From: Deltaproteobacteria bacterium HGW-Deltaproteobacteria-22
GTDB lineage: Bacteria > Myxococcota_A > Polyangia > HGW-17
Assembly: GCA_002841825.1 (NCBI GenBank)
Contig: PHAZ01000001.1
Span: 3,107-67,106, forward strand
Length of the DNA: 64,000 nt
Reading direction: 5' to 3'
The notes under the pieces were generated by a model. It ran no database searches. It was not told the DNA's origin and saw nothing but the letters and a program-made list of their open reading frames with translations. The first letter of the stretch is position 1. The number at the start of each line of letters is the position of its first letter. Shown here one piece after another: positions 13,910 through 63,333 of the stretch. A program made the translations under genes and the position numbers.

Positions 13910-14013
13910 CATGAGACCACGTGATCTTCTGTTTTGTCTTTCAAAGTTTAGGTAAAAGTCCGATTGATTTCCGAAAGGAAAAGGGATACTTTTTCCATCC
14001 GTGAGGGGTGCAA

Positions 14014-15126: not shown

Positions 15127-15133
15127 TTCCAGA

Positions 15134-16171: not shown

Positions 16172-16208
16172 ATTTATTTTTAAATCAGGAAAATCATAAG
16201 AGGCGGGA

Positions 16209-16766: not shown

Positions 16767-16892
16767 ATGGATATGACCTCATTCAGGTCTGGACACCTGA
16801 TGAATGCTAGAGTTGAAACAGAAGATAACCCGGTCAACCACAGTTGACAAATTTGCAGCAAAAACACCAGAAGCCACGGACTCGGAACTTGT

Positions 16893-16910
16893 ATGTTTCA
16901 CGTGAAACAT
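16893..16910. promoter_or_regulatory. Perfect 18-bp palindrome ATGTTTCACGTGAAACAT (CACGTG core)
   Basis: Exact reverse-complement symmetry. Located 8 nt downstream of the ABC transporter stop and about 125 nt upstream of the start of the divergent... no, co-directional hypothetical gene 16766. A candidate hairpin terminator or dimeric-regulator operator. Confidence 0.4.
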
Positions 16911-16917
16911 GTAGGGA

Positions 16918-36504: not shown

Positions 36505-38373
36505 ATGTTTTTTTCCAAGATCTGGCTGGTTCTGGTCACATTCGCCGGTGTTCTGGCCCTGGGCGCCCTGCTCGTCGCCACCCGCCCGGCGGAGTATTTC
36601 CTGAAGCAGAATTTCCGCGCCGACGGCATGCTGCTGGACATGGCACAGGTGTCGTTCGACGCCGAACTGTCGCGCGAGTCGCGTCAGATGCTGGACCGGC
36701 TGGGCAGCATCCGGCTGGACAAGCGCATCGTCGAGGCGGCCGAGACCCAGAAGGACACGGAAAAACTCACTCCGGTCCTGCAGGACTTCGCCAAGCGCCT
36801 CAATGTGATGGAGGTGATCGTCACGGATCCGGCCGGCGCCGTGCTGGCCAACTCCGCCAAGGGTCGCGCCACGGTCGCCAACTTCACGCCGTTCAAGGAA
36901 GCCGTCCAGGGCTACCACAGCGACAACACCATGGTCCTGGACAACCACCTGCTGCAGGTGTTCGCGGTGCCCATCCTGTCCAAGGACTACAAGCGGGTGG
37001 CCGGAGCGCTGGTGGTCCTGCGCAAGTTCGACACGGAGTTCCTCGCCGGCATCCAGGACGCCCTCGGTCACGGCAAGACCAAGGACTTCGATGTTGAAGT
37101 TGCAATATTTATGAACAATAAACTCGTGTACACCACCCACAAACATGACGTGTGGGGGCAGGTGCCAGCTTACTACGAGAAGGTCGCCGCCGACATCCGC
37201 AACCCCGAGAAGGGTTTTGCCCCGTCCACCACGCTGGTGGACAAGAAGCAGGAATACCAGGTGATCCTGGGCCAACTGCGCGGCGAGGTCACCAATCCGC
37301 TGGTCGAGGGCGACCCGAATCCGGCGCCGGCGGCCGCGGACAAGGACAAGAAGGACGACGCCAAGAAGGACGACGCCAAGAAGGACGGCGCCAAGAAGGA
37401 CAGCGCCAAGAAGGCGGGCTCGGGCGTCACCGACGACACCGGCGTCTACTATGCGCTGGCCTGGAAGCTGCCGCCGCCCCTGGGCAGTTTCGCGTTCATG
37501 GACAAGCACATCCCGCAGAGCGAACTGATGAAGGGCTTCCCATGGACGATGCTCGTGCTCGCGGGCGTGGGCATCTTCATCCTGGGCATGCTCATCGTCA
37601 TCTTCGAGGGCGACATGCCCCTGCGCCGCCTGATCAAGCACACCAAGGAGGTCGCCTCGGGCGACATGCTGCTGATCAACGACCAGGCGTTCCACGGCCG
37701 GTTTTCCTCCCTGGCCCGCGCGATCAACGAGGCCCTGGAGAAGACCGCCGAGCGACAGGGCGGCCCCTCACTGCACGACAAGTCCATCGGTGACATCCTC
37801 GGCGGACCGGCCCCCTCGGGTGGCGGTGCCGGGCTCTCGCTCAAGGACGGCGGTCCGCCGCCCCCGCCGGTGACCGGCAAGCCTCTGACCTACCCCAAGG
37901 TCAAGAATGTCGACCTGCCGGGCCAGAAGGTGCCCGCGGTGCTGCCGGACAAGCCGATCATGTCGTCAGCGCCCCCCCTGCCCTCGTCGGCTCCCCCGCC
38001 GCTGCCGGGCCGCCCCTCCAATCCAGCCATTCCGACGGTGTCCGGATCCGAATCCGCTCCGGCCTCCACCTCTTTGGCCGCGGACAAGCCGGCCGATGCC
38101 GGGGACAAGAAGAGCTCCGGCAACATCATCCTTCCCCCGGGACCTTCGGATGATCCGACCGAATATTACAATTATATTTTAACCAAATTCAAAGAAATGA
38201 AGATGCAACTCGAGGGCTCCCTGGAAGGCTTCACCGACGAGGAGTTCGTCAAGAAGCTCGCCCAGTCCACCGCCGACGTCCGCGCCAAGATGAAGTGCGA
38301 GCGCGTCATCCTCACCGTCTACGAGCGCGAAAAGAAAGCCGGCCTCAAGGCCGCCCCCTACCGCGGCCAGTAG
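36505..38373 (+). CDS. Membrane protein with periplasmic sensor-like domain, second TM, cytoplasmic Lys/Asp and Pro-rich repeats and a conserved C-terminal domain
   Basis: TM1 at N-terminus. Roughly 270-aa extracytoplasmic region. TM2 (WTMLVLAGVGIFILGMLIVIF) followed by a HAMP-like stretch. (KDDAKK)n. Pro-rich linker. Conserved C-terminal 70 aa. Confidence 0.5.
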   Translation: MFFSKIWLVLVTFAGVLALGALLVATRPAEYFLKQNFRADGMLLDMAQVSFDAELSRESRQMLDRLGSIRLDKRIVEAAETQKDTEKLTPVLQDFAKRLNVMEVIVTDPAGAVLANSAKGRATVANFTPFKEAVQGYHSDNTMVLDNHLLQVFAVPILSKDYKRVAGALVVLRKFDTEFLAGIQDALGHGKTKDFDVEVAIFMNNKLVYTTHKHDVWGQVPAYYEKVAADIRNPEKGFAPSTTLVDKKQEYQVILGQLRGEVTNPLVEGDPNPAPAAADKDKKDDAKKDDAKKDGAKKDSAKKAGSGVTDDTGVYYALAWKLPPPLGSFAFMDKHIPQSELMKGFPWTMLVLAGVGIFILGMLIVIFEGDMPLRRLIKHTKEVASGDMLLINDQAFHGRFSSLARAINEALEKTAERQGGPSLHDKSIGDILGGPAPSGGGAGLSLKDGGPPPPPVTGKPLTYPKVKNVDLPGQKVPAVLPDKPIMSSAPPLPSSAPPPLPGRPSNPAIPTVSGSESAPASTSLAADKPADAGDKKSSGNIILPPGPSDDPTEYYNYILTKFKEMKMQLEGSLEGFTDEEFVKKLAQSTADVRAKMKCERVILTVYEREKKAGLKAAPYRGQ

Positions 38374-38427
38374 AACACTGAGCAGGAATCCGTTGAAAAA
38401 CCTCAGTTTTTCTCGCCTGTTGAAATA

Positions 38428-38447
38428 GCATTTCCTTAACTTGGGCG
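38428..38447. repeat. Left direct repeat (attL candidate), CATTTCCTTAACTTGGGCG
   Basis: 19-bp exact match to 63026-63044. Lies between the chromosomal gene ending at 38373 and the integrase gene end at 38478. Confidence 0.7.
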
Positions 38448-38477: not shown

Positions 38478-39638
38478 TCAGCGGATTCCATTGGCAGTAG
38501 TCTGATTCTGAAGGATGTTTACGCCGGCGCGGAGGTTGTCGGGGGATAGATGCGCGTAGCGGCCGGTCACCTCCAGGGAACTATGGCCCAACAATGTGGA
38601 GACGACGGGTAATGGTACACCAGCCTGGACCATGCACGAGGCATGCGAGTGTCGGAGCATATGTGGGGAGATGGGCCTCAACCCGGCTGATCTGCAGGAT
38701 TTCTTCAGATGGAAGCCGGCGTTGCGTGGACGTTCATAGCCTTGTTTTTTGTCCGAAATAATCACCAGGCGCCGGCTGAGGGATGCCTGTGGCAATGGCG
38801 TAATATTCTTCTCTCCGGGAAAGCGTAAGAAAAAAATATTCTTCAACGCGCTGACCGCTTCGCTGTTCAGGGGGAGCACACGGGTGCGGCCATTCTTTGG
38901 TGTCATCACTTGTGGTCCGCGATCCGTGAAATACACGGTCCGCTGAACTCGAATGGACTCGAATTTTGCCCGGAGATCGAGGTCGTTCCATTCAAGCGCA
39001 CACATCTCCCCAATTCGAAGGCCAGTATGGAAGAGGAACCGAAATACGCAGCTCCAGATGGGTGATGCATGTTTGCAAAGAGACTCCAATTCCTCCACCG
39101 TGAGGAAATCCGTCTTGATATTCACGATCTCCTTGATCGACTCCAGGGTCAAGGAAAGAGGAGGCAATCCGGATTTATCGGCGACCTTCAGGCAGGTTTT
39201 CAGAACGCGGATGTGCCGAGGCGTGGATATCTTTCTGGCGGCTTCCATGAGTTGATCGCAATGCGATTGCGAGAAATTCACCCAGGCCAGTTCGCCGATG
39301 ACCGGAAAGACATGCTTGCGCAGACTGCACTCGTGGATGTAGCGGGTGGAGGGTTTCAGATGTCCGGTGAGCTCCAGCCAGTCCAGAATTGCACGTAGAC
39401 CGCTCTCCACGGTGTGAATGGTTTTCGGCCCGCGCTTATGCCCGGGCACCACCTTCTTGATACCGTTCTGGATCATCGAGAGTTCCTTCTCTCCCCACGA
39501 GATGGCCGCCCCTCGACTATCGAAACCACGCTTCTTCAGGCGGCGCGGGATGCCTTCATGATCCTTGAAGCAGTGGTCCACACGGAACAGTACCCGGCCA
39601 CGCCTCTCGTAGGGATAAGCGACGATAATCTCAGACAT
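38478..39638 (-). CDS. int: Tyrosine-type site-specific integrase
   Basis: C-terminal catalytic domain with R...HMLRHSHAS...LGHSSLEVTGRYAHL (R-H-R-Y tetrad). N-terminal SAM-like core-binding domain. Confidence 0.9.
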   Translation of the reverse strand: MSEIIVAYPYERRGRVLFRVDHCFKDHEGIPRRLKKRGFDSRGAAISWGEKELSMIQNGIKKVVPGHKRGPKTIHTVESGLRAILDWLELTGHLKPSTRYIHECSLRKHVFPVIGELAWVNFSQSHCDQLMEAARKISTPRHIRVLKTCLKVADKSGLPPLSLTLESIKEIVNIKTDFLTVEELESLCKHASPIWSCVFRFLFHTGLRIGEMCALEWNDLDLRAKFESIRVQRTVYFTDRGPQVMTPKNGRTRVLPLNSEAVSALKNIFFLRFPGEKNITPLPQASLSRRLVIISDKKQGYERPRNAGFHLKKSCRSAGLRPISPHMLRHSHASCMVQAGVPLPVVSTLLGHSSLEVTGRYAHLSPDNLRAGVNILQNQTTANGIR

Positions 39639-39744
39639 AACTATCGGCCTTTCTGGCCTGCAGAATTTCGCGTTGCAGGCATCATAGCTCAGCCCCAAGG
39701 GGCGGTCAAGCACGCAGGCTCGGCCGCCCCTCCAAAGCGCAGGG

Positions 39745-47775: not shown

Positions 47776-48191
47776 GATTCGTCCCCAGCGATGGAGCGTC
47801 GCAGGATGGCCGCCCGCTCGGACTCGATGAGCAGCATCGATAGATTAAGAAATGCCCGAAAATCGAAGATCGCCAGCACGGTCGTTTTGGTAACGAAATT
47901 CGTTTCGTCACCAAAATGACCCTGAAGGCATAGCTTGAACGATTTCAATCGGGTGCCGCGCAGGACCTCGTAGCCGTTTTTGGTCAACTCCTCGCCGTAT
48001 CTATCCAGATAGTTGTCGATGGTCCGAGGGGTCACCTCGAAGAAAGCGGCGACTTGTTCCTTCAAGACCACGGTCTTTCCCTCGAAGGGAATTCCCTGGA
48101 TACCCGCGGCCTTCTCAATCTCCGAAAGCGCGTAGGGGTTGTTCAGGATGTTCTGGCGATCGATCTCCGAGGAGGTCAGGTCCTTTCCCAT
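47772..48191 (-). CDS. Small protein between mod and res, RhuM-family-like putative DNA-binding protein
   Basis: 140 aa after trimming the track ORF to MGKDL.... The VLKEQVAAFFEVTPRTIDNYLDRYGEEL segment resembles the N-terminal HTH-like region of RhuM-type proteins that commonly interrupt R-M loci. Start and stop overlap the mod and res genes. Confidence 0.4.
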   Translation of the reverse strand: MGKDLTSSEIDRQNILNNPYALSEIEKAAGIQGIPFEGKTVVLKEQVAAFFEVTPRTIDNYLDRYGEELTKNGYEVLRGTRLKSFKLCLQGHFGDETNFVTKTTVLAIFDFRAFLNLSMLLIESERAAILRRSIAGDES

Positions 48192-48193
48192 GG

Positions 48194-50113
48194 TTACAAA
48201 CTCCTCACGTTGGTGACGCCGTGCTGCAGCAGGATCGCCGACAAGTTGACCTTGGCGACATCGTCGACGAACGCACCATCGCGAAAGACGCAAGTCGGAT
48301 CTCCAGCGGTGCCCAACTCCCGTCGCCAGCCCACGATGCCCAGCGCCAGGGGTTCGATCTGCTCCCGGGAGATCTTTTCCGCCAGACAGGTCACCAGCGT
48401 ACCGCCGCCGATGGCGCTGACTTCCAGTCCGGCGATGGTTCTTTTCTGTAGGGGTACGCACAGGTCCAGACCCAGCTTGAGCAGGACTTCGTAGAGCAGA
48501 TCCTGCTCCGTGCGTCCGGGTTTGACGTGCTCGACGGCATCCAGCAGCGAGCGTTCCAGGTCGCGATGATCCGGGTCCCACTCCCGCAGGTTGGTGGCGT
48601 CGAGTTTGAACACGCGGAAACCAAGGTCAGGAGGCACCGGTTTCATCCCTTCGCTTTCCGAGAAGAGGTCACCCTGACGAGTACTCTCTGTCGCTTGCAG
48701 CTCTTCGGTAATCTTCTTTCCCGCTCGCCGCAGACGCTCCTTGGTGATATCGGAGATATTAACTATGGATTCCGAGATCCTTTCCTTTAGTGGCTCTTGC
48801 AGTTGAATAATAATGAATCTTTTATTTAGATTACTTGAAAGGTTCTGTGCCATTACTGCGTGGGCTGTCGTTCCAGATCCAGCAAAAAAATCAAGAACTA
48901 TCCCTTCTTCATCTGGGGAGAAGGCTAGTTGAATCATTCTACTAATAAGCAATGTAGGTTTTGGCGTGTCAAAAGATTCACTTTCGGGGAATAGTGCTCT
49001 CATCTGATTTTTCGAGGTTCGATTGCTCCCAACATCTTCTTTTCGCCAAAGCGTCCGAGGAGTGAGATCTCCGACTTCAGTAAGGTATCTTTTTATACTA
49101 GGTCGCGCGTCATTAGTTGGTCCCCACCAGATTCTGCCGTCAGAATCCAGTTCTTGAAGTTTTTCTTCTGAGATTCTCCAAAATCTTCCAGGTGGGGGTG
49201 AGAAAGTTCGCCCCGTTGGGCCTTTCACAGAATATTTTCCTTTGGAATAAGGCTTATTTGCGTAGGGATCACCGGGCAGCCATTCTCCACGAGGATCATT
49301 ATCTGGATTATTGTAAATGGAATTAGCCTCTTCTGTGCGAGGTAAGCGGGATGGTACCCATTCAGGTGATTTTGAATAAACAATTAGGAAATCATGGTCT
49401 TCGGAAAATTGACGTGCTGTATTTCTCGGTGAATCGGCTTTTTCCCAAATCACGGTAGCGACGAAATTCTCAGAACCAAAAATGTCATCCATAATCATCC
49501 GCAGGTTCGCCACTTCGTTGTCGTCGATGCTGACGAAGATCACGCCGTCGTCTCGCAACAGAGTGCGGGCCAGCTTCAGGCGCGGATACATCATGTTCAG
49601 CCAGTCCGTGTGGAAACGTCCGCTGGCTTCGGTGTTGGAGGAGATTTTCTTCCCACCCTCGACCTGTCCCGTCAACTCCAGGTAGTTGCGGATGCTGTCC
49701 TGGAAGTTGTCCGGATACACGAAGTCCTTGCCGGTGTTGTAGGGCGGATCGATGTAGATCAACTTCACGCGACCGGCGTAGCTCTTCTGCAGCAACTTGA
49801 GCACTTCGAGGTTGTCGCCCTCGATTAGCACGTTCTGGGTGGTGTCCCAGTCCACGCTGTCTTCAGGACAAGGCCGCAAGGTACCCGTGGAGGGTAAAAG
49901 CGCTGCCTGTCGTGCCTGCCGTTTGCCGAACCAGTTCAGTCCGAACTTCTCCTCCCGATCCTCGACGCGACCTCCCAGTAGTTGACGCAGCACCTCGAAG
50001 TCGACCTTCCCTTCGACGAAGGCCTCCGGAAACAAAGCGCGCAACTGCTCCAGGTTCTCTGTCACGAGCTCCAGGGAGTGCGTCATCGGGTCGGTGGGTT
50101 CGATTTTCTTCAT
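48194..50113 (-). CDS. mod: Type III restriction-modification DNA methyltransferase, Mod subunit (N6-adenine)
   Basis: DPPYN catalytic motif (LIYIDPPYNTGKDF). SAM motif FFAGSGTTAHAV. 639 aa. Confidence 0.85.
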   Translation of the reverse strand: MKKIEPTDPMTHSLELVTENLEQLRALFPEAFVEGKVDFEVLRQLLGGRVEDREEKFGLNWFGKRQARQAALLPSTGTLRPCPEDSVDWDTTQNVLIEGDNLEVLKLLQKSYAGRVKLIYIDPPYNTGKDFVYPDNFQDSIRNYLELTGQVEGGKKISSNTEASGRFHTDWLNMMYPRLKLARTLLRDDGVIFVSIDDNEVANLRMIMDDIFGSENFVATVIWEKADSPRNTARQFSEDHDFLIVYSKSPEWVPSRLPRTEEANSIYNNPDNDPRGEWLPGDPYANKPYSKGKYSVKGPTGRTFSPPPGRFWRISEEKLQELDSDGRIWWGPTNDARPSIKRYLTEVGDLTPRTLWRKEDVGSNRTSKNQMRALFPESESFDTPKPTLLISRMIQLAFSPDEEGIVLDFFAGSGTTAHAVMAQNLSSNLNKRFIIIQLQEPLKERISESIVNISDITKERLRRAGKKITEELQATESTRQGDLFSESEGMKPVPPDLGFRVFKLDATNLREWDPDHRDLERSLLDAVEHVKPGRTEQDLLYEVLLKLGLDLCVPLQKRTIAGLEVSAIGGGTLVTCLAEKISREQIEPLALGIVGWRRELGTAGDPTCVFRDGAFVDDVAKVNLSAILLQHGVTNVRSL

Positions 50114-50136
50114 CGTGTTGACTCCATGCTACGGGC

Positions 50137-50907
50137 TTACAAACGGCGCTTCCACATTTCCAGTTCCCGCTGCGCCTGCGCCAACTCGTCATTGAGCTGC
50201 ACCTGGCGGGCGATCTGCTTTTCCCGACGGGCAGCGGATCGAAGCCGGGTCATCATGCTACCGATTCGCGCCACCTCCCGCAATGCTTCTTCTCGTTCCC
50301 TGGCCCGCTCGGGAGTGGCGCAGATCGAGAAGTTCCCCAGGATGCGGGCAGTCTGCAGGGCCAGCAGAGCATCGATCCAGCTCTGATACAGTTGGTGCAT
50401 GTGCATGCGCCGCTGGTTTCCCAAGGCCAGACTGCCACGGAAATCCAGCAGGAAAGGCGCGTCGGGATCGGTGATGGAGCCCACGGTCACGACCTTGCCG
50501 TCAAGCACCGTTCGGGAAGGATCCTGGAGGGCACGTCGGATGTGCACCGCCGATAACTGGGTGCAGTCGGCCTGCTCGGTGAGCAGCAGCACCGGATAGG
50601 GAACGGACCGATGCACGCGTTCCACCATGCGTCCGATCCGTGCTTGCGGACGAAGCGACAGGTGCAGCACGGCGATCTCCTGGTAGTCTCGCGCAGATTC
50701 GCGATAAGCAGGAACGCCGATGGTGGTGGGCTTGAGCGTGGCCAGCCAGAACAGGGCGACAACACCTTCCGAGATAGCCTTGCGATCCGCCGGGGAAAAG
50801 ACTGCATTTTCCAACAGCAATTTCTTTGGAATGCGCAGGTTCAATCGACACGTGTCCGGAAGATCCAGCGCCGCTACGAGATCGTCGGAGTTGAAGATCT
50901 CCTTCAC
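50137..50907 (-). CDS. DUF4391-like protein (helicase/R-M-associated, function unknown)
   Basis: 256 aa. Position and size match DUF4391-family proteins found between SNF2 helicase and type III mod genes. Assigned from memory of that family and its context, not from a search. Confidence 0.5.
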   Translation of the reverse strand: MKEIFNSDDLVAALDLPDTCRLNLRIPKKLLLENAVFSPADRKAISEGVVALFWLATLKPTTIGVPAYRESARDYQEIAVLHLSLRPQARIGRMVERVHRSVPYPVLLLTEQADCTQLSAVHIRRALQDPSRTVLDGKVVTVGSITDPDAPFLLDFRGSLALGNQRRMHMHQLYQSWIDALLALQTARILGNFSICATPERAREREEALREVARIGSMMTRLRSAARREKQIARQVQLNDELAQAQRELEMWKRRL

Positions 50908-53900
50908 TGCGGTTTTCCTCGATCGTCTTCGTCGGAAAGCACTACCAAAAAGGCGAGCACCTCGAAGTCCTGGCTGCCGGAGAATTCCCCGGTGACTGCG
51001 TGCGTGCCCCCCGGTGAGAACAGACTGGCTGCGGCCTTCTCTTCGCTCTTTCCTGCGATGGAGGCAATGGCAGCAGAGAGCGCACGCTGGGCCTTGCGCA
51101 TGTCGAAGCCGTTCTTTGTTTCTCGATCAAAACGGTTGACCGCGCCCGCATCCACAAGGTCGCGGCCGATGCACAGCCGTTTGATGCGATCCAGGAGTTT
51201 CTTCGTCTGGGTGTAAGGCAACACTACGGTGCCATCATCGGTCACGTGCACGAGGAAGTGCGGTGCCAGCGGATACCCGTCGGAAGAGAACCGTGAGGCG
51301 GCAGGTCCCTCAGCGCGCAGGCAGAACAGGAAACCAGGTGGGATGTCGATCTCATGCGTCGTGGTGACGGCAAACGAACCGAAGGGGGCACTGTCGAGCG
51401 TTCCGGGATGGGCCTTCAGATGGCGCGCCAGATCGATGCGGAAATCCGTGAGCGTGAGATCGGCGATGGAAACGCCGGAGGAAAGATCCTCCAGGTCGAT
51501 GACGGCATCCTGAAGCTTGAGTAGCTGCTTGCGCCGGTATTCCAGATCGTTCATCTGGTTGCCGACCGCAGCCTGGATGAGGTTCTCCTCGCCCGTGGCG
51601 GAGATGTCCAGCAGCACCATGCGTCCGCCGACGCGCTGTTCCAGGTTGATGTACTCTTCGAGCTCCATGTTGGGCCAGAAGTTGATCAACTGGATACGGT
51701 CGTTGGGGCTGCCGATGCGGTCGATGCGGCCGAACCGCTGGATGATGCGCACGGGGTTCCAGTGGATGTCGTAATTGATGAGCGTGTCGCAGTCCTGCAG
51801 GTTCTGTCCTTCGGAAATGCAATCGGTGGCGATGAGCAGATCGAGCTCCCCTTCATCGGCTAGAGCTTCCGGCCGTTCCTTGGAACGCGGCGAGAAGGCC
51901 GTGAGAATGTTGGCCAGCTCACGGCGGAGTTTGGGCAGCGTCGTCTGGTTGGTGCCGGCACCGGTCACCAGGGCGCTTTCAATCTGATGCGTCTGTTTGG
52001 CCCAGGTGGCCAGATGTTCGTAGAGATAGCGGGCCGTATCCGCGAAGGCGGTGAAGACGATGACCTTCCGATTGCCGTGATTGACCGGATGCTTGAGCTT
52101 GTGCTCGATGACGCCTTTGAGGTTCGCCAGCTTCGCGTCTCGTGCAGCATCCACCTGATGCGCGGCCTGCACGAGCGTGGACAGGCGGTTGCGATCCTCG
52201 ATGAGATCCTGCCTCCAGCGGATAAGGTCCACATCGTGGAGGAGTACTTTAATCTTGCGACCCACGAGCTGGCTCTCGAACTCGGGATCCTCGATGTCCA
52301 TTTCCTCGATGTCGATGGCTTCCACCTCCTCGCTGGTGGGCTGCTGTTCGATGCGGTCGAGCATGGCTTCCACGTCGTCGAGTTGTCGCTGCATGGTGAG
52401 CTGGAAGGACGTGACGGAACTTTCCATCCGCTTGAGTGCGTTGATGCGGATCAATTGAATGAGACTGTCCTCACGGTCCTTCTGACGGAAAAAACCTTCG
52501 CCGCTGCTGAGCACGGTGCTGTACTTGCGATCGTAGGACTCCTGCCGGTGTGCCAGCACGTATCGCAGCGGTGCGTAGGCCGCCAGGTGCAGGTGTCGGA
52601 TCTCCGAGTTGATCGCGGCGATGGGAGGAAACACGCCGGCGTTGTCGACATCGGCCTTGATGTTGATCGGGGTCAAGCGATCCGGAAAACGGCCCGTCTC
52701 CTCGATGCCGTAGTACTTCTCGATGTGCTTGCGGGAGCGTGCAATTGTGAGCAGATCCAGCAGGGTGAAGTAGTCGAAGCCCAGCATGTCCACCAGGCGC
52801 AAGGGAGTCCGTTCTGCCTCGTCCAGTGTGAGCCAGCGATTGAACTGCTTCTGCGCGATGCGGGTGGTGGTGTCGATGCTGGCGATCCCATACTCCTCCA
52901 GGGCGGTGTCCTTGCCCTCAGTGGCGAACGCGATCTGGTTGCGCAAATCGGCCAGGCGGTTGTTCACGGGAGTGGCCGAGAGCATCAGCACGCGCGTCTT
53001 CACGCCTTCCTGGATAAGCTTGCGCATCAACTTGCCGTAGCGGGTTTCCCCGTCCATGTGCGGCGTGCGGCGATTGCGGAAGTTGTGCGACTCGTCGATG
53101 ACCACGAGGTCGTAGTTGCCCCAGTTGATGTGCGCGAGATTGATATCGCCGGAGATACCACCATCGCGCGAAAGGTCCGTGTGATTGAGCACGTCGTAAG
53201 AGAGACGATCTGCAGCGAGGATGTTGCGACAGTCGTTGGCCTTGTAAATCGTCCAGTTGTCACGCAGACGTTTGGGACACAGCACCAGCACCCGATCGTT
53301 GCGCAGCTCATGGTACTTGATGATGGCCAGCGCCTCGAAGGTCTTTCCCAGACCGACGCTGTCGGCGATGATGCAACCGCCGTGACGTTCGAGCTTGTCG
53401 ATGGCACCGATGACACCATCCCGCTGGAATTTGTAGAGCTTCTTCCAGACCATGGTGTTGCGGATGCCGGTGGCCGATTTGATGATGCGATCCTCGTCGA
53501 GATCGTCCTGCCTGTCAGAGAACAGATGGAACAGCATCAGCGCATACAGGGAGGTGGGATCGCGTGGGGTGGCGATATCCTGTAACGCCTGTAGCAGAGC
53601 CTGCGAATTAGTTCCGTCGGAACGTCGCGCATTCCACTGCGCCTCAAACCATTGGGCCACGGAGTCCGCTTCTTCGCTAGTCTGGGAAGCCTGGATCAAA
53701 TTCATGGGATTGCCCGGCGTCAAACCTAGGCCGTCGGTCGAAAACGACAAGGTTCCCGACAGTGCCAGAACCGGCTTTCCATCTGGGTTTGAAACGACCC
53801 AGGTGCCCTGCGGGATCGCTCCCTGCGCAAATCGAAACTCCACCTGCGAGGATGTCAACCAAGCCATACAATGGTTCGCCCAATGCCGCAACTGCAGCCG

Positions 53901-54125
53901 GTTTCGTGCCGGCCGATCCGCCTCGCTTCCCGTCAGCGCCAGTGCATCCATTTCCTCAGGCAACAGCAGGCGGCATTGCGCCAGGTCTGAAAGTCGCTTC
54001 ACCATTTCCGCAAAGGCCAGAAGCGACAACCGTGATGTCACGACATCCAACCGATTTCCGACTTCCAGCGCCGACGCCAGGTGATCCATGACGCGGTCGC
54101 TTCCGACATTGCGCACGATTCTCAT
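50904..54125 (-). CDS. SNF2-family helicase with about 220-aa N-terminal extra domain
   Basis: Motif [14 protein letters not shown]. Motif II [12 protein letters not shown]. Motif III [9 protein letters not shown]. C-terminal helicase domain [43 protein letters not shown]. 4-bp overlap with the DUF4391 gene. Confidence 0.85.
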   Translation of the reverse strand: [1073 protein letters not shown]

Positions 54126-55463: not shown

Positions 55464-55533
55464 CATCCGTGAAATAGCATGATGCCTTTTTGTGAGGCCG
55501 CAACTGACCCTGGATTTGAATTTCATGACGCCT

Positions 55534-55559
55534 AAAAAAGTCTGGGTTTCCCCAGACTT
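55534..55559 (-). terminator. Rho-independent terminator for the minus-strand operon ending with the Cas4-like gene
   Basis: Minus-strand hairpin AAGTCTGGG-GAAA-CCCAGACTT followed by TTTTTT. Lies 30 nt downstream of the stop at 55589. Confidence 0.65.
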
Positions 55560-55588
55560 GAAGATCAAATATTCATTGTGTGGTGGGT

Positions 55589-56422
55589 TCAGTCCTGACT
55601 GGCGCACATGCTCCTGTAGCTGCAGCCGCCGCATCTCCAACTCCTGTGTTTAGGCAGGACGAGCTGGGGATGGTCGTGGGACAGGGCAAGGGAGATGATT
55701 GTGGAGGCGGATGCGGCCAGGGTCAGGGCGCCTCGCTCCTCTTTGGCGGGGTCATGGCGGGCGATGGTCTGGAGGGTGACTGCAGGAATTTTGGATTTTT
55801 GGAGGAACTGATACTGCAGGGAGACATCATCGACGTCGAAGATAGTCTTGGCCGCGAGTGAATACAAAGACATCTGAGTGTCCGGTGCGGCGACCTTGTC
55901 GTTGTCGATGCGCGCAGCCGTCTTGTGGTCGGTCACGACGATCTGTCCGTTGCGTTCTTCGACGAGATCGAAGGTACCGAGCAGGCACTCCGGGAGTTGC
56001 TCGCCCGAGAACGGGTTCACTAGCGGGAGAACAAACTTGAATTCAACGGCAAGGATGTGGGCAGGACGGTAGCCGGTGGCCAGGAAGGCCGTCAGCATCG
56101 CGCTGGCCTGCGACTTTAGCGAATCGATGGACTCGCCCTTCTTGAACGAGATGGGTGCTCTCTGCGGGGCATCGATGGCCGCCGAGGCCACGTCGACGAG
56201 TTCGGTGAGCGTCGGCTCCGTGCCGGACTGCTTCACGGAATTGTAGAAATAAGCGAGCGATTCGTGCACCGCGGACCCTAGGATGAGCGCGGCGCCGGTG
56301 TCTTGGGGCGGTTGCCCTTGGATGTAGTGGTAGAGGAATTCGCGGGGGCACTCAATGAGGGTGGAGATCGAGGAGGCCGAGAGGTGAAGTGCTTCATCTT
56401 GCGGAACGGGATTTGTAACCAT
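55589..56422 (-). CDS. PD-(D/E)xK nuclease-superfamily protein, Cas4/RecB-like, with C-terminal Cys cluster
   Basis: Motifs around QIVVTDHKTA (D..E.K core). Three C-terminal Cys (CGGCSYRSMC) plus an N-terminal Cys (IEC), the Cas4/AddB-type Fe-S arrangement. No cas1/cas2 or CRISPR nearby. Confidence 0.6.
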   Translation of the reverse strand: MVTNPVPQDEALHLSASSISTLIECPREFLYHYIQGQPPQDTGAALILGSAVHESLAYFYNSVKQSGTEPTLTELVDVASAAIDAPQRAPISFKKGESIDSLKSQASAMLTAFLATGYRPAHILAVEFKFVLPLVNPFSGEQLPECLLGTFDLVEERNGQIVVTDHKTAARIDNDKVAAPDTQMSLYSLAAKTIFDVDDVSLQYQFLQKSKIPAVTLQTIARHDPAKEERGALTLAASASTIISLALSHDHPQLVLPKHRSWRCGGCSYRSMCASQD

Positions 56423-57930: not shown

Positions 57931-58518
57931 GATTCAATCCTTTTCTGTTGATTTAATTATTGTTTTTGTCGGGGTGGGTTAATTGACAGGGTGGGAGAAA
58001 TGGCGGGTTTGAGGGTGGGTCCTTGTTGTTCATAGAAGTGCTCCTGGTATGGGTTTCAGGCGGTTTTTGCTTGGTGACGCGGATGCGGTTTTTGGGTGCG
58101 GATGCGGGTGTGTGTTTGCGGACGTTTGGGTGTTTCTAGGACGGGCGTTTGGAAGGGAAAAGTGGCAGGTAAATGCGGTGGTTTGCGGTGAGGTTGTGGT
58201 GAGGTGTTTTTCGCGGGGTCGGTTGCGGGTTTTCAGGCAGGCAGGAACGCAAAAGTGCGCTCCTTATGGTTCTTGTACCAGAAAAATGCGGATAATCAGG
58301 TTATGGATGCTCAATTCCCAGCGACAGACGAGAAAGTCAGATCGGGGAGCACGTTGCCCAGTTCATCGACGAGGCCAACACGCACAGGCGACCAAACTGA
58401 GCGACCAAGCTCAACAAGGCGCTCCCGAGGCCAGTGGCGGTGCAGGCGGTAGAGGACGTTGCCGTCGGGTGTCAAGGGCGATTGAGATGCGGTCGAGCGC
58501 AAACGGGGCACGCAACCC

Positions 58519-58770
58519 TTAGCGGCAGAGCTGCTCGAGTCCGGCGCGATCCTCGGGCGCCCCCGTGTGGAAGGCGTGAAGGGAGAAACCATCGACCTTG
58601 GATTCCTCTGCGTCTTCGTCGCGGTCCTCGGCAATGTGCTTGAGCTTGAGGCAGGCGCAATCGACACTGCTGTCACCGTCGTAGTCGAGGGCGTCGGCGC
58701 AGACGCGGCCGTCCCACCCAGTGTCGTGCCACGGGACGCGGATGGAGATGTGTTTCAACGGGTAGTTCAT
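58519..58770 (-). CDS. Small ORF translationally coupled (ATGA) to the RT-nitrilase gene; unrecognised N-terminal motif IRVPWHDTGWDGRVC; possibly frameshifted
   Basis: ATG overlaps the RT stop codon. 83-aa ORF. A second frame continues coding-like sequence to about 58311. Confidence 0.35.
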   Translation of the reverse strand: MNYPLKHISIRVPWHDTGWDGRVCADALDYDGDSSVDCACLKLKHIAEDRDEDAEESKVDGFSLHAFHTGAPEDRAGLEQLCR

Positions 58771-61700
58771 CCCAAACCTGCCGGAGGCGACTTCCAAGGC
58801 GACTCCGGCGCGAGTGCTTTGATCCTGCGCGCTATGACATGGTCGATGTTATTGATTTCGAAGAAGGCTACCGAAGCTTGCGGTTGTCCATGAAGGTGGA
58901 ACATCTGCCGTTGGTACTCCTTTCCCCAGGGATGGTACGCATTGCTGCCACCATACTCGCCGTTGTTTGCGATAACGACATACTGAAACATGTGGTAATG
59001 CAGCGCCAATGCCATTTGATCGAACGTGCCCACGTCCCTGTTCAGCGCTGGGATCGCGAATACATCAGAATGGTGACGAAGGTCTGCGGCCAACGCCAGA
59101 TCTGTCGCGTCGTAGCAGACGGCCGCGGTAAGCCACAGTGGCGGATCTGCTAACATGCTCGACCAGTCGTAGCCCACCAACCACTGACAAGGGCGCCAAC
59201 CTTGCACGACAACTTTCGGATTGTTCAACTTTGTCTCACCTGCGGCGAGGTGATGCTTTCCTTGCCGTCGAATGAGAGTCTGCAACCCGTGAGCTGCCGA
59301 CCAGGTCGGCATTATCCAAATGGCGGAATTGACCAGCGGCTGACCAGCGAACAATTCTTGGTAAGTCAGTCCCGCCAAGATGATGGCCCTGTGCTTGCGA
59401 GCAAACGGAATGAGGTGTGTCTTCACATCAAGTGGATGCACGGCAAGTTCCGGCAGAATTAGCCAATCGAGGCGACCATCGAGACCCATGTGCGTCTCAC
59501 GCAGATCGAGCATTCGCTCGATCGCTGCCAGAGCGGCAGACAAATGATTACGGTGCGTCTTGCGAATGCCCCGTTCGGACAAACTAAGATCGTCAACCGC
59601 TGCAGCGGTGATGATGTCGCTGGAGGTCGGCGTAACGGTCTGCACCACACAAGCCCGTAGTGGTCGCGTCTTCTTCTTCCCGTCAGGCCGCGAGGTATTG
59701 AACGGCAGAAGAAGAACACCGCTTGAACCACCTTGCATCCTATCGAGTTTCGATTGGCGCTCTTCAATAAGGGCGAGCAAGGCGAGAACGCCGCCTTCGG
59801 TCTGTCGGTCCATCTCTGAAATTTGACACCCTGGCCATCGAAGCAACGAGAAAAGCAACTGCTCAATCCAGTCCGAGATCGGCAGCCAGTCATCGCCAAA
59901 CGCCGAGTGCCCGTTGAAGAGACCGTAGAGCCTTTGATACCAATGGCTCTCCGCTGCTCGGTACGTTGTTGCGGTCTCCTTCCAACTGGGCGGGCGCACA
60001 ATCTTTGTGAAGTCTTGGCGCGCTGTCAGAATGAATCGAAGTAGATATCCAAGCTGAAATCGCCAACGCTTGTCAGCAGGGCACCATCGGGGCGGGCGGT
60101 ACATGGACCCGGCAGGTGTGACTCGGCTTGACGCGACGGAGACCGTGTCTTTTTCGGATAGTCCTTTCGCGGAATCCTGAACCCTAATGCGGACGTCTTC
60201 TGGGGTGATGACGTCATCCATTGCTGCCTCGGGCAATGCCTTCAGAAACTTTGAGGCGAAGCGAAGCACGGCGAGCTCGTTCCGTAGCGAACCGTTGGGC
60301 GTACCTTGAAGGACTATTTCGGCGAGCGACATCCCTGACTCGGCTCCAGCACGCAGCCGCAGGCAAAGATCATCACGCAAGCGCGGGGTGACGCTGGCAG
60401 CAAGGTCGGGCCGCGATTCAAGTATCTCCAATGCAAAGGACGGATCTCGCTCGCCGATCTGCTCGAGCCGGCTGGATGTGACACCATCGCGCACCAGCTC
60501 AATCGCTGTTTCTCGTCCGCAAAACGATCGACGCGCCAAGACGGCCAGCGTAGAAAAGTCCCCTCCCTTAATACGGTCGCCCTCGTTTCTGAGGAAGCGG
60601 ATCAACTCGCGGTAATGTTTCGTCTCCGGGTTGGTTCCTCCCCGTTGGACTGGTGCGTCCTTGGGGTCGTTTGCCGCGAGATACAAGAATGCCTGCTGCC
60701 TGAGATACCAAGGCAGCGCCGCTGGGGGTAACTCAGCAAGGCGCACCGCCTCCTGCCGCAGGAGCTTTCGATAGGCATCGATGTCGATACCTTTTGGCAT
60801 AGGCTCGCCTGTTTCAACGAAACCGGTCTCCGTGGCGCCAGCCCGCAACACTTCCGAGAGGCAGTACCACGCCACCCGTCGCGGTGCCCCTCGATGTCCT
60901 CCCTTAACGGTGAACGGTCGTAACAGGTCGAGCACACTTTGAAGAACAACCTCCGCCGGCCAAAGGTCCAACCCGATGCGAAGCAGGCGCACATTCGAGG
61001 GGTCTTCGACCCAACTTTCGATGAGGCCGAGGGCAAACGATCTGGCTTCATCATCAAGCTCGCTCTGAGTGCGAGCTACACCGGCGCGACTTGCTGCGTC
61101 CTCGTTCGCGTACACCTCGACTGACGTGTCCGGCTCTACGCGGTCCGCTAGGAGCGGTCTCAGGGAACGATAGGTGCTTCTGAACCGCGCTGCGGCGAAA
61201 CGCTCAACTGTGGCGTCGAGTACATCTGTGACGGGTGCGAATGCCCAACTTTGTCCGTCGATTCGCTGTGCCGAATAGCGCTGTTGGGACTGAATCAGCC
61301 CTTGGACAGCATTAAGGATGTCTTCGCCGCCAATTGCATCGAAGCCGCCGGAGATTGCGCCCTGAATGCGCGCCATCTTCCGGCTCTGCCGCACCAAAGG
61401 TCGCTCATCCCCTCCGAAGTTCGCGGCCCTGGTCTTCTCGGCAGAGACCTGCAAACCATGGGCTTGCTCATCAAGCAACTCCTGAAGCCATTTCGTTGAA
61501 AGCTGCTCGATGTCAGGGAGTGTCTTCTTTTCCGTGACCCCCAAGACAATGCGGAGATCATCGACGTACCGGCAAACATCCTTGACGACGACTCCAGGCT
61601 CGATCTCCTGAGACACGGTTTCCCGCAATCCTTGGTCAAAATCGAGCAACACGACGTTTGCAAAGAAACCGGATGCGACCAATCCTTGGGGAAGCGCGAC

Positions 61701-62537
61701 TCGTGAGAAATCGTCAATCCCCGCCTGCCTCGTGTAGTCTGCGATCTCTCGATCGTCCTTGCTGGCCCACTCCCAGTTCAACAAGCGATTCGCGAGTATG
61801 TAGAAGTTCGGATCATCGTTCGGTCGCGCCAGTGCGCTGAGCTTCCTAGCGAGTAGATCGGGCCGCACGCGGTCATAGAACTGGCGTAGGTCCGAGTGGA
61901 CGATGATGATTCGATTGCCTGCATCCCTTGAGACTTCCTCGGCGACAGTCTCGGGTCGCGCCAGAAAGCTTCGATAGTCTTGGTAGTGGGCGCGATAGAG
62001 TTTTCCTGAACCCCAGCGGTGAAGAAGCGAGCCACCAGCGTTGTCGCAAAACAAACGGTTGCCGTAGGAGATAACTTGATTGCGTACCACCGTATCTGTG
62101 ATTTGACCGCGAGGGTCACCCTGTAGCGTCTCGACCCTATCAGCGATGCACATCATCACGGCGGTGGCTGCCACTTGGTCGCTGAGGCTTGCGTGCGCCA
62201 ATGGACGCAGCGTGGTGCCCGGGCGTTTCGTATCCTGCGGGGTCCTTCGAACTGGGACTGGTTCCCAGCGCTTGGAGATCGAATTCACCTGCCAATGCTG
62301 ACTCTTGGGCGCCGGTACTATTCGCAGCGGATCGCTACACCACCTCTCAGGCGCCGCGAGACGTTCGGCCAGCTCGCCCAAAAAACGAGGGAGGTTAATC
62401 GCAGTCCGATCCAGTTCCAGCGTGTCAGAAAACCAATTGTGATACCGGATGTAAGAAGCCGTCTTCTTCCATGCTTGGACGAGGACAACCTCTTCGCGGA
62501 GTAGCTCAAGGTGCGGTCCAAGAACGTCGTTTGTCAT
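58767..62537 (-). CDS. Reverse transcriptase-nitrilase fusion protein (defence-associated RT, DRT type 1 / UG1-like)
   Basis: RT motif A IIIVHSDLRQFYDRV. Motif B-prime VALPQGLVASGFFANVVL. Motif C YVDD. Long helical middle region. C-terminal carbon-nitrogen hydrolase domain (LILPEL ... AAVCYDATD candidate E/C of the catalytic triad). 1256 aa. Confidence 0.75.
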   Translation of the reverse strand: MTNDVLGPHLELLREEVVLVQAWKKTASYIRYHNWFSDTLELDRTAINLPRFLGELAERLAAPERWCSDPLRIVPAPKSQHWQVNSISKRWEPVPVRRTPQDTKRPGTTLRPLAHASLSDQVAATAVMMCIADRVETLQGDPRGQITDTVVRNQVISYGNRLFCDNAGGSLLHRWGSGKLYRAHYQDYRSFLARPETVAEEVSRDAGNRIIIVHSDLRQFYDRVRPDLLARKLSALARPNDDPNFYILANRLLNWEWASKDDREIADYTRQAGIDDFSRVALPQGLVASGFFANVVLLDFDQGLRETVSQEIEPGVVVKDVCRYVDDLRIVLGVTEKKTLPDIEQLSTKWLQELLDEQAHGLQVSAEKTRAANFGGDERPLVRQSRKMARIQGAISGGFDAIGGEDILNAVQGLIQSQQRYSAQRIDGQSWAFAPVTDVLDATVERFAAARFRSTYRSLRPLLADRVEPDTSVEVYANEDAASRAGVARTQSELDDEARSFALGLIESWVEDPSNVRLLRIGLDLWPAEVVLQSVLDLLRPFTVKGGHRGAPRRVAWYCLSEVLRAGATETGFVETGEPMPKGIDIDAYRKLLRQEAVRLAELPPAALPWYLRQQAFLYLAANDPKDAPVQRGGTNPETKHYRELIRFLRNEGDRIKGGDFSTLAVLARRSFCGRETAIELVRDGVTSSRLEQIGERDPSFALEILESRPDLAASVTPRLRDDLCLRLRAGAESGMSLAEIVLQGTPNGSLRNELAVLRFASKFLKALPEAAMDDVITPEDVRIRVQDSAKGLSEKDTVSVASSRVTPAGSMYRPPRWCPADKRWRFQLGYLLRFILTARQDFTKIVRPPSWKETATTYRAAESHWYQRLYGLFNGHSAFGDDWLPISDWIEQLLFSLLRWPGCQISEMDRQTEGGVLALLALIEERQSKLDRMQGGSSGVLLLPFNTSRPDGKKKTRPLRACVVQTVTPTSSDIITAAAVDDLSLSERGIRKTHRNHLSAALAAIERMLDLRETHMGLDGRLDWLILPELAVHPLDVKTHLIPFARKHRAIILAGLTYQELFAGQPLVNSAIWIMPTWSAAHGLQTLIRRQGKHHLAAGETKLNNPKVVVQGWRPCQWLVGYDWSSMLADPPLWLTAAVCYDATDLALAADLRHHSDVFAIPALNRDVGTFDQMALALHYHMFQYVVIANNGEYGGSNAYHPWGKEYQRQMFHLHGQPQASVAFFEINNIDHVIARRIKALAPESPWKSPPAGLG

Positions 62538-62604
62538 GAGGACAGGCTACCGCTGCGGTTGGGGGACAACTGGCTGGGTGCCATGGAACCGACCGCCTGT
62601 GGCT

Positions 62605-62790
62605 TCATGACTCGCGACCCATTACCTCAACGAACTCCGCGACCACCTGCAGCTCCCCCTCATTCACGCCGGTGAGAATGATCGGCTTGAAGTTGGGGTT
62701 CACCGGCTTCAGCGTGTTCTTCTCGTCCTTCGAGAGCGTGCGCCCCTTGCGGTCCTTGAGCCACTTCTCGCAGAGAGCATAAGCACTCAT
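62605..62790 (-). CDS. Small hypothetical ORF near the right end of the element
   Basis: 61-aa ORF only, no motif recognised. Could be a gene remnant. Confidence 0.2.
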   Translation of the reverse strand: MSAYALCEKWLKDRKGRTLSKDEKNTLKPVNPNFKPIILTGVNEGELQVVAEFVEVMGRES

Positions 62791-63025
62791 AGACGTTTTG
62801 GCCTCCCACGGGTACTATCCCCGAGGGTGCAGCGGAAGTCAAGGTTGAGCATTTTGGGTAAAAAAGGGGTTTACGAGGAGATTTGGCGCCATCGCTTTAC
62901 GTGTTGTTCGCCCATGATTTTCCGCCTCCTCCGCAACTGACCCGCGCGCACCTCCCCGACCGCCGGGGAGCGAAACGTTCACCTGTGACCCGACCCACCT
63001 TCACGTTCCACCCACGTCAGGAAAC

Positions 63026-63044
63026 ATTTCCTTAACTTGGGCGA
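63026..63044. repeat. Right direct repeat (attR candidate), CATTTCCTTAACTTGGGCG
   Basis: Exact copy of 38429-38447. Followed by a second AACTTGGGC half-repeat. Confidence 0.7.
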
Positions 63045-63333
63045 AACTTGGGCCAAAATGAGCCTTTCCTTACACGAATGAGAAAAAATGAGGCTGACAA
63101 CAAGAACTGAGAAAACCCACACGGGACAAGGAAATACGCGAAATTCTCAGGCCGTACGCGGGGTTTTGAAATGGCACATGGATTACCGCGGCCAGTAGAC
63201 CCCCCTCCCATTTTGGGACAGCGGATGCTCCATCAAGTCAAATTCGCCGTTCCATTCGTTGACGGTCCACCACCTGGCTGCTATCGTTTCCGTGATGCGG
63301 CAAGCACGAATCTACATATTGTTAATCAACGCG

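What the first reader, a model, noticed from the sequence alone, without database searches (positions are those of the whole stretch)
58767..62537. 1256-aa reverse transcriptase fused to a nitrilase domain (DRT type 1 / UG1-like) on the island
Clear RT motifs A, B-prime (LPQG) and C (YVDD) in the N-terminal third. The C-terminal approximately 300 aa has CN-hydrolase features (LILPEL glutamate, AAVCYD cysteine). This matches the published defence-associated RT class 1 architecture, whose mechanism is still unresolved. Here it sits on a mobile element next to another nuclease and an R-M system.
Basis: partly seen in the sequence, partly recalled or inferred. Interest (0 to 1): 0.6.

Follow-up and report, generated by a model that had tools for sequence, protein, structure and literature searches.

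The report
DRT1 reverse transcriptase–nitrilase defence gene
This is an intact but ordinary member of the known DRT1 (UG1) family of anti-phage reverse transcriptase–nitrilase proteins, whose mechanism was published in 2026; it sits at one end of a 25-kb integrated island, and the genes that flank it in its closest relatives have been deleted.

Summary
The 1256-codon ORF is real (58767-62537, minus strand). It matches the PADLOC Drt1a/UG1 profile end to end (1272.7 bits, E=0). Its only PDB sequence hit is the solved DRT1 filament, 9YFD (E 3.9e-110; about 34% identity in the RT part and 41% in the nitrilase part).

Every residue shown by mutation to be essential in DRT1 is present and conserved across 53 diverse homologues: YVDD D326/D327, priming Ser396, nitrilase Cys1141, and the C-terminal lid K1249/A1253. 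The rest of the Glu-Lys-Glu-Cys tetrad (E1030, K1094, E1101) is also present.

Pfam CN_hydrolase does not hit even at E≤10. An AlphaFold model of the C-terminal 510 aa nevertheless retrieves only nitrilase-superfamily folds.

Its statement that the mechanism is unresolved is out of date (Neville et al., NSMB 2026), although the nitrilase substrate and the full trigger remain unknown.

Context beyond the finding:
- Direct repeats at 38359-38374 and 63184-63199 delimit a ~24.8-kb integrase island, and the RT is its last gene.
- In the closest relatives the RT lies between a type IIG/ISP-like methyltransferase gene and an SF1B helicase gene (PDC-S68). Here both are reduced to stubs.
- The helicase usually occurs without an RT, so the two are co-located rather than an obligate pair.

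Verdict: new member of a known kind, low to moderate interest.

The parts
58767..62537 (-). drt1 (UG1) gene: 1256-aa reverse transcriptase / alpha-helical repeat / nitrilase fusion, stop codon included
   Evidence: ORF. PADLOC Drt1a 1272.7 bits, full length. PDB 9yfd_A E 3.9e-110. dN/dS 0.20 against the 90%-identical relative L001.
61398..62537 (-). N-terminal extension plus RT domain (aa 1-380). The Pfam RVT_1 match covers aa 197-372 (nt 61422-61949).
   Evidence: Alignment to 9YFD residues 11-399, 34% identity. Invariant D216, P283-Q284-G285, V325-D326-D327 in 53 homologues.
61557..61568 (-). RT motif C, YVDD (aa 324-327). D326/D327 correspond to the essential D324/D325 of DRT1.
   Evidence: PMC13275509.
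61350..61352 (-). Ser396, the predicted protein-priming serine (equivalent to Ser402 of DRT1)
   Evidence: Aligned with S402. Invariant 53/53. S402A abolishes defence in DRT1. Priming here is inferred.
59661..61097 (-). Central helical region (aa 481-959), corresponding to the alpha-helical repeat domain of DRT1
   Evidence: Aligned in part to 9YFD (6-625 and 810-1240). Domain name taken from PMC13275509. Boundaries are approximate.
58770..59660 (-). C-terminal nitrilase (CN-hydrolase superfamily) domain, aa 960-1256. Catalytic tetrad: E1030 (59448-59450), K1094 (59256-59258), E1101 (59235-59237), C1141 (59115-59117).
   Evidence: 9YFD 967-1213, E 7e-45, 41% identity. E1030, K1094 and C1141 invariant; E1101 >=90%. 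AF2 model plus Foldseek: the best 44 hits are all CN-hydrolases. Pfam CN_hydrolase: no hit.
58779..58793 (-). C-terminal lid motif K1249-S-P-P-A1253 (equivalent to the essential K1219...A1223 of DRT1)
   Evidence: The profile alignment to 9YFD 1135-1228 places 'KTQPAG' on 'KSPPAG'. K 52/53, P1252 and A1253 53/53. K1219A and A1223F abolish defence.
58600..58797 (-). Stub (first ~59 codons) of an SF1B helicase gene (PADLOC PDC-S68) that is full length (1264 aa) in close relatives. Its start overlaps the RT stop by 31 nt. The ORF as called is 58519-58797.
   Evidence: PADLOC PDC-S68 positions 1-51 of 1221, E 1e-13. tblastn covers only aa 1-59. DNA homology to L001 stops at 58601.
62723..62774 (-). 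52-nt remnant of the type IIG/ISP-like methyltransferase gene that precedes the RT in relatives (encodes CEKWLKDRKGRTLSKD)
   Evidence: The homology block with L001 that contains the RT ends at 62574.
38359..38374 (+). Left copy of the 16-nt direct repeat TACCGCGGCCAGTAGA, a putative att core. It overlaps the stop codon of the 622-aa ORF 36505-38373.
63184..63199 (+). Right copy of the 16-nt direct repeat, the putative other end of the island, ~650 nt beyond the RT start
38478..39713 (-). Tyrosine integrase at the left end of the island
   Evidence: Pfam Phage_integrase E 2.1e-28.

Best explanation
The ORF encodes a single-gene DRT1 (UG1, class 3 UG/Abi) abortive-infection defence protein, carried as cargo at the right end of a ~24.8-kb integrase-bearing island. 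By homology to the characterised DRT1, the proposed mechanism is as follows. The RT domain needs no RNA template. It primes on its own Ser396 and adds a short, A-rich, semirandom ssDNA that stays covalently attached. These DNA adducts drive tetramerisation through the nitrilase domains and stacking into filaments. In the filament, the domain-swapped C-terminal tail (K1249...A1253) closes over the nitrilase active site (E1030-K1094-E1101-C1141) and keeps it dormant. Phage replication functions, which in T4 include the SF1B helicase Dda, release this state, and nitrilase activity on a still unknown substrate aborts the infection. Shown here: gene integrity, family membership, conservation of every mutationally essential residue, the nitrilase fold, purifying selection, absence of a known ncRNA, and the island context. 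Inferred: all biochemical steps, expression, and activity in this host.
For: A full-length Drt1a profile match of 1272.7 bits. 9YFD is the only PDB sequence hit, E 3.9e-110 and 7e-45 for the nitrilase part alone. D326/D327, S396, E1030, K1094, C1141, P1252 and A1253 are invariant, and K1249 is 52/53, in 53 homologues of 28-59% identity. The C-terminal lid aligns with K1219/A1223 of 9YFD. The AF2 model (pLDDT 69, pTM 0.73) retrieves only CN-hydrolase folds, E ~1e-5, probability 1.0. dN/dS is 0.20 overall and 0.14-0.24 in each domain. There is no Rfam family in 54-64 kb, consistent with template-free synthesis. The mechanism and mutant data are from PMC13275509. Most relatives (at least 60 of 80 genome loci) have no helicase partner, and published DRT1 works as a single gene.
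Against: Identity to the only characterised DRT1 is modest, 34-41%. The native upstream region is replaced from 37 nt before the start codon. No promoter-like site stands out above chance, so expression is unproven. Both neighbouring genes of the ancestral arrangement are deleted. Pfam CN_hydrolase does not detect the domain. The host is an uncultured deltaproteobacterial MAG whose phages are unknown.
Confidence: 0.85

Rival explanations
1. The gene is an intact-looking but functionally stranded leftover. It survived deletions that removed its operon neighbours and its native promoter, and it is no longer expressed or no longer protective in this genome.
For: The helicase is reduced to ~59 codons and the methyltransferase to 52 nt. 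Homology with the 90%-identical relative covers only 58601-62574. There is no convincing promoter.
Against: There is no frameshift or stop in 3.8 kb. dN/dS is 0.20 in all domains and all catalytic residues are intact. The same stub state recurs in L020, L066 and L083 with intact RTs. Two independent assemblies carry the identical gene.
Confidence: 0.1
2. In this clade the RT-nitrilase works together with the SF1B helicase (PDC-S68) encoded directly downstream. The window copy, having lost the helicase, would then be an incomplete system.
For: In relatives the helicase start overlaps the RT stop by 31 or 4 nt. The pair occurs in three RT clades. The phage SF1B helicase Dda is required to trigger DRT1. 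The partner is RecD2/RecD/Dda-like.
Against: Of 64 helicase loci with enough upstream sequence, only 2 have an RT. Five have the methyltransferase directly followed by the helicase. At least 60 of 80 RT loci lack the helicase. Helicase and RT identities are incongruent: helicase 80-88% alongside RT 58%. Published DRT1 is autonomous.
Confidence: 0.05
3. It is a retroelement RT (group II intron maturase or retron RT), or another RT-nitrilase class (UG5-large), rather than DRT1.
For: Weak RT-domain similarity only: TIGR04416 41.5 bits and retron St85 25.7 bits. RT_UG5-nitrilase scores 116 bits, on the nitrilase part only.
Against: These scores are far below the curated cut-offs of 300 and 235. 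No intron or retron RNA was found by Rfam. The Drt1a profile scores 1272.7 bits over the full length.
Confidence: 0.01

Closest known systems
DRT1 (UG1, class 3 UG/Abi RT) as characterised in PDB 9YFD / PMC13275509
   Same: The size is similar (1256 vs 1229 aa) and the order is the same: RT, helical repeat, nitrilase. YVDD, the priming Ser, the Glu-Lys-Glu-Cys tetrad and the C-terminal K-x-P-P-A lid are all conserved. It is a single gene in a defence island. No ncRNA was found.
   Different: Identity is only ~34% (RT) and ~41% (nitrilase). The window protein belongs to the sub-family modelled by PADLOC PDLC03745 (1272.7 bits) rather than PDLC02171 (407.5 bits). The host is an environmental deltaproteobacterial MAG. 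There is no drt1b. No experimental data exist.
UG5-large (DRT5L) RT-nitrilase
   Same: It is also a class 3 RT fused to a C-terminal nitrilase, and it performs protein-primed, template-free synthesis according to PMC13275509.
   Different: Only the nitrilase part matches (116 bits, aa 979-1229). According to PMC13275509 the DRT1 priming serine is not conserved in other class 3 DRTs.
Class 1 protein-primed UG/Abi RTs (AbiK, DRT4 and others) and retrons with fused effectors (retron-Eco2)
   Same: Class 1 RTs also make untemplated DNA covalently attached to the protein. In retrons, the DNA product acts as an antitoxin-like regulator of an effector.
   Different: These systems have no nitrilase effector. 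Their priming residues and oligomers differ. Retrons need an msr/msd RNA, and none was found here.
PADLOC candidate PDC-S68 (SF1B helicase with a C-terminal nuclease-like region), together with a split type ISP-like R-M (PLD-SNF2 + type IIG methyltransferase)
   Same: These are the neighbours of the RT in its closest relatives, and remnants of two of them flank the RT in the window.
   Different: They are not part of DRT1. The helicase is found mostly without an RT. In the window only stubs remain.

Membership tests
DRT1 / UG1 (class 3 UG/Abi RT) | Full-length match to a UG1/Drt1a profile and a length of 1200-1300 aa | tested here: met
   PDLC03745 Drt1a: E=0, 1272.7 bits, protein 4-1255 against profile 4-1176 of 1176. 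Length 1256 aa.
DRT1 / UG1 (class 3 UG/Abi RT) | RT domain with a catalytic YxDD motif | tested here: met
   Pfam RVT_1 39.4 bits, above the 29.6 cut-off. Y324-V-D326-D327, with V325/D326/D327 invariant in 53/53 and Y324 in 52/53.
DRT1 / UG1 (class 3 UG/Abi RT) | C-terminal CN-hydrolase (nitrilase) domain with a Glu-Lys-Glu-Cys tetrad | tested here: met
   9YFD nitrilase domain E 7e-45. E1030, K1094 and C1141 invariant; E1101 >=90%. Foldseek returns only CN-hydrolases among hits with E <= 0.002. Caveat: the Pfam CN_hydrolase profile gives no hit at E<=10.
DRT1 / UG1 (class 3 UG/Abi RT) | Conserved priming serine in the linker after the RT domain (S402 in 9YFD) | tested here: met
   S396 aligns with S402 and is invariant in 53/53.
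DRT1 / UG1 (class 3 UG/Abi RT) | Conserved C-terminal lid residues (K1219 and A1223 in 9YFD) | tested here: met
   K1249 and A1253 align with them. K 52/53, A 53/53.
DRT1 / UG1 (class 3 UG/Abi RT) | [quoted passage not shown] | not testable with these tools
   These need biochemistry and phage assays. They are inferred from PMC13275509.
DRT1 / UG1 (class 3 UG/Abi RT) | Adjacent transmembrane gene drt1b (optional, ~18% of loci) | tested here: not met
   No Drt1b hit among 10 neighbouring ORFs. This feature is not required for membership.
Group II intron RT / retron RT | Score above the curated family cut-off and an associated structured RNA | tested here: not met
   TIGR04416 41.5 bits against 300. 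Retron St85 25.7 bits against 235. No Rfam match in 54-64 kb at E<=0.1.
UG5-large RT-nitrilase | Full-length match to the UG5 profile | tested here: not met
   Only aa 979-1229 match, 116 bits.

The most novel reading that the evidence does not exclude
In three separate RT clades, the drt1 gene sits between the methyltransferase gene and the SF1B helicase gene of a PLD-SNF2 / type IIG-ISP methyltransferase / SF1B helicase cassette, and its stop codon overlaps the helicase start. Because a phage SF1B helicase (T4 Dda) is needed to trigger DRT1, the host-encoded SF1B helicase could act on the DRT1 ssDNA adducts. That would make a functionally coupled R-M plus abortive-infection module. The window would then hold a decayed copy of that module that kept only the RT.
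Probability: 0.12. Interest if true: 0.55.

Novelty: new member of a known kind. Interest (0 to 1): 0.25.

Why it matters
In itself the gene adds one more divergent, environmental DRT1 to a family that already has hundreds of 50%-identity clusters and a solved structure, so it changes little. It has two uses. First, the residues found essential in the single characterised DRT1 (priming Ser, lid Lys/Ala, nitrilase Cys) are invariant or nearly so (K1249 in 52 of 53) across homologues down to 28% identity, which supports the generality of the published mechanism. Second, the recurrent embedding of drt1 inside a three-gene R-M-like cassette with an SF1B helicase, and its repeated survival when that cassette decays, gives natural material for asking whether DRT1 is truly autonomous and what senses its DNA adducts.

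Tried and rejected
1. Pfam CN_hydrolase. There was no hit on the full protein (E<=1), nor on the C-terminal 297 or 510 aa (E<=10). I replaced this test with homology to 9YFD and a fold search.

2. NCBIfam. Nothing reached a cut-off.

3. ncRNA. Rfam found nothing in 54-64 kb. The promoter and terminator scan was not above chance.

4. drt1b. No match among the neighbours.

5. P0185 (1229 aa) as the 9YFD sequence. It is not, and no fetched protein is. Residue mapping therefore used HMMER alignments to the PDB chain.

6. 'RT + PDC-S68 helicase is an obligate two-gene system'. I tested this with a metagenome scan. Only 2 of 64 helicase loci carry an RT, so I rejected it as a general rule.

7. The 52-nt block at 62723-62774, conserved at 86-96% across divergent loci, as a possible DNA or RNA element. 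It encodes a conserved methyltransferase peptide (CEKWLKDRKGRTLSKD), so I read it as a gene remnant.

8. The first tree run timed out. I repeated it with faster settings. The result is a rough NJ identity tree only.

9. The full-length protein exceeds the 1200-aa limit of the structure and representative searches, so I used sub-ranges.
Full report
**1. Observation**

An ATG-started ORF of 1256 codons plus stop lies at exactly 58767-62537.
- LPQG, aa 282-285
- YVDD, aa 324-327
- LILPEL, ending in E1030
- AAVCYD, containing C1141

Pfam recognises the RT domain: RVT_1 covers aa 197-372 at 39.4 bits, against a cut-off of 29.6. The identical protein is deposited as a hypothetical protein of the MAG 'Deltaproteobacteria bacterium HGW-Deltaproteobacteria-22'. 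Two independent assemblies also carry it.

**2. What it is**

The PADLOC Drt1a (UG1) profile matches from end to end: E=0, 1272.7 bits, protein 4-1255 against profile 4-1176 of 1176. The RT-associated nitrilase profiles match the C-terminal part: RTasNitrilase at 1.2e-60 and RT_UG5-nitrilase at 4e-34.

Retroelement models fall far below their cut-offs. The group II intron maturase scores 41.5 bits against 300, and retron St85 scores 25.7 against 235.

The only PDB sequence hit is 9yfd_A, 'Defense-associated reverse transcriptase 1'. It scores E 3.9e-110, in two stretches covering aa 6-625 and 810-1240. The C-terminal 297 aa alone give 7e-45. Identity is about 34% over the RT part and 41% over the nitrilase part.

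The family is large:
- more than 1594 homologues with E<=1e-10
- 351 clusters at 50% identity with E<=1e-30
- 529 loci in species-representative genomes of many phyla

**3. The nitrilase question**

Pfam CN_hydrolase gives no hit, even at E<=10 on the isolated C-terminal region. Three other lines of evidence overrule it.
- The region is homologous to the DRT1 domain that cryo-EM showed to be a nitrilase with a catalytic tetrad.
- E1030, K1094 and C1141 are invariant, and E1101 is at least 90% conserved, in 53 homologues of 28-59% identity.
- An AlphaFold2 model of aa 747-1256 (pLDDT 69, pTM 0.73) retrieves only CN-hydrolase superfamily structures from the PDB. They include aliphatic amidase, formamidase AmiF, Lnt, Nit2 and beta-alanine synthase, at E ~1e-5 and probability 1.0.

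**4. How it most likely works**

The DRT1 mechanism was published in June 2026 (PMC13275509). Its main points are:
- DNA synthesis is template-free and protein-primed from Ser402.
- The product is a short, A-rich, covalently attached ssDNA adduct.
- The adducts drive tetramers and dormant filaments.
- A domain-swapped C-terminal tail, with K1219 and A1223 essential, closes the nitrilase site.
- RT (D324/D325) and nitrilase (C1116) activities are both required.
- Defence is by abortive infection.
- The T4 Dda helicase is necessary but not sufficient for triggering.
- The nitrilase substrate is unknown.

Each of these residues has its counterpart in the window protein:

| 9YFD residue | Window residue | Conservation in 53 homologues |
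|---|---|---|
| D324/D325 | D326/D327 | invariant |
| S402 | S396 | invariant |
| C1116 | C1141 | invariant |
| K1219 | K1249 | 52/53 |
| A1223 | A1253 | invariant |

The gene has evolved under purifying selection in every domain. Against the 90%-identical relative, dN/dS is 0.20 overall and 0.14-0.24 per domain. No known RNA family is present in 54-64 kb, which fits template-free synthesis.

I therefore commit to the DRT1 mechanism for this protein, with confidence 0.85. The biochemical steps, expression and host activity are inferred, not shown.

**5. Surroundings**

Window 1-38 kb carries housekeeping-type genes, including GlmS-like and glycogen-debranching-like genes.

A 16-nt direct repeat, TACCGCGGCCAGTAGA, occurs exactly twice. 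One copy is at 38359-38374, overlapping the stop codon of the 622-aa ORF. The other is at 63184-63199. A 19-nt repeat lies just inside each end, at 38429-38447 and 63025-63043. Together they delimit a ~24.8-kb island.

The island's genes are all on the minus strand. In order they are:
- tyrosine integrase (38478-39713)
- P4-family primase-like protein
- type III R-M res and mod
- DUF4391 plus SNF2 helicase
- PD-(D/E)XK nuclease
- DUF932 / TIGR03299
- the RT, as the last gene

The 'mobile element, nuclease, R-M' context is thus confirmed. No drt1b is present.

**6.

The RT's immediate flanks are gene remnants.

In the closest relatives (90% nucleotide identity for L001-L003; 76-78% amino-acid identity for L004 and L005) the RT is the third gene of a four-gene block:
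- a PLD-SNF2 protein
- a type IIG/ISP-like methyltransferase-TRD
- the RT
- a 1264-aa SF1B (RecD2/Dda-like) helicase, PADLOC candidate PDC-S68, whose start overlaps the RT stop by 31 or 4 nt

In the window, homology to L001 covers only 58601-62574. The helicase is cut to its first ~59 codons (58600-58797). The methyltransferase is reduced to 52 nt (62723-62774).

Among 80 genome loci, the state of the helicase directly downstream of the RT is:
- full length in 9
- cut by the contig end in 1
- reduced to an N-terminal stub, as in the window, in 3 others (L020, L066, L083)

These loci fall in three RT clades.

I tested whether the RT and the helicase form an obligate pair, and they do not. Of 64 helicase loci from metagenomes with enough upstream sequence, only 2 carry an RT. 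Five have the methyltransferase directly followed by the helicase.

The better reading is that drt1 is recurrently embedded in, and outlives, a three-gene R-M-like cassette. Functional coupling with the helicase remains possible. It is suggestive because the phage trigger, Dda, is also an SF1B helicase. I give it a probability of about 0.1.

Neither Mestre et al. 2022 (which reports only a transmembrane partner for UG1) nor any held paper (no mention of PDC-S68) describes this arrangement.

**7. Verdict**

The finding is a correct identification of a known kind of system: a new, divergent, uncharacterised member of DRT1/UG1. Interest is low to moderate (0.25). The embedded-cassette context is the only part that goes beyond current descriptions.

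Noticed in passing
window 58519-58797 (-); L001 8482-12276; L020, L066, L083 downstream of the RT: The 92-aa ORF that overlaps the RT stop codon is the N-terminal stub of a 1264-aa SF1B helicase (PADLOC PDC-S68). Three other genomes independently keep an intact RT followed by a similar ~40-50-codon stub.
   Followed up: yes
L001, L002, L004, L005, L017, L019, L020, L025, L027, L028, L062, L083; L088, L090, L092, L109, L136: A cassette of PLD-SNF2, a type IIG/ISP-like methyltransferase and an SF1B helicase (whose C-terminus has a conserved region hit by PADLOC PDC-S69, possibly a nuclease domain; not tested) occurs both with and without a drt1 gene between the methyltransferase and the helicase. 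The literature I searched does not describe this arrangement.
   Followed up: partly
window 62723-62774 (inside ORF 62605-62790, -): A 52-nt block is 86-96% identical to the methyltransferase genes of loci whose RTs are only ~58% identical. It encodes CEKWLKDRKGRTLSKD and is the only piece of that gene left in the window.
   Followed up: partly
window 38359-38374 / 63184-63199 and 38429-38447 / 63025-63043: Two pairs of exact direct repeats (16 and 19 nt) bracket the integrase-to-RT segment. The 16-mer includes the stop codon of the flanking 622-aa ORF, which suggests integration into the 3' end of that gene. The 19-mers could be arm-type recombinase sites.
   Followed up: partly
window 44806-54125 (-): A type III R-M (res 44806-47775, mod 48194-50113) is followed by DUF4391 (50137-50907) and a 1073-aa SNF2 helicase (50904-54125) that matches the PADLOC 'HKD+Snf2' model from position 145 onward. 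This looks like a second defence module on the same island.
   Followed up: no
window 58027-58168 and 55512-55618, compared with L085: A second assembly of the same element (JGI contig, L085) is 100% identical except that it lacks these two non-coding segments of 142 and 107 nt. The 142-nt segment lies in a C/A-rich stretch between DUF932 and the helicase stub.
   Followed up: no
window 14001-18000: A low-GC patch (0.43-0.46, against ~0.60 around it) lies in the chromosomal part of the window and holds the ORFs 14008-15126 and 15134-16171 (+). It may be another acquired segment.
   Followed up: no
L085 1-7800 (beyond the window end, upstream of the RT): Beyond the putative right att site there are genes of 525, 503, 396 and 313 aa with no Pfam hit on record, and a DUF5670 gene. 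I did not examine them.
   Followed up: no
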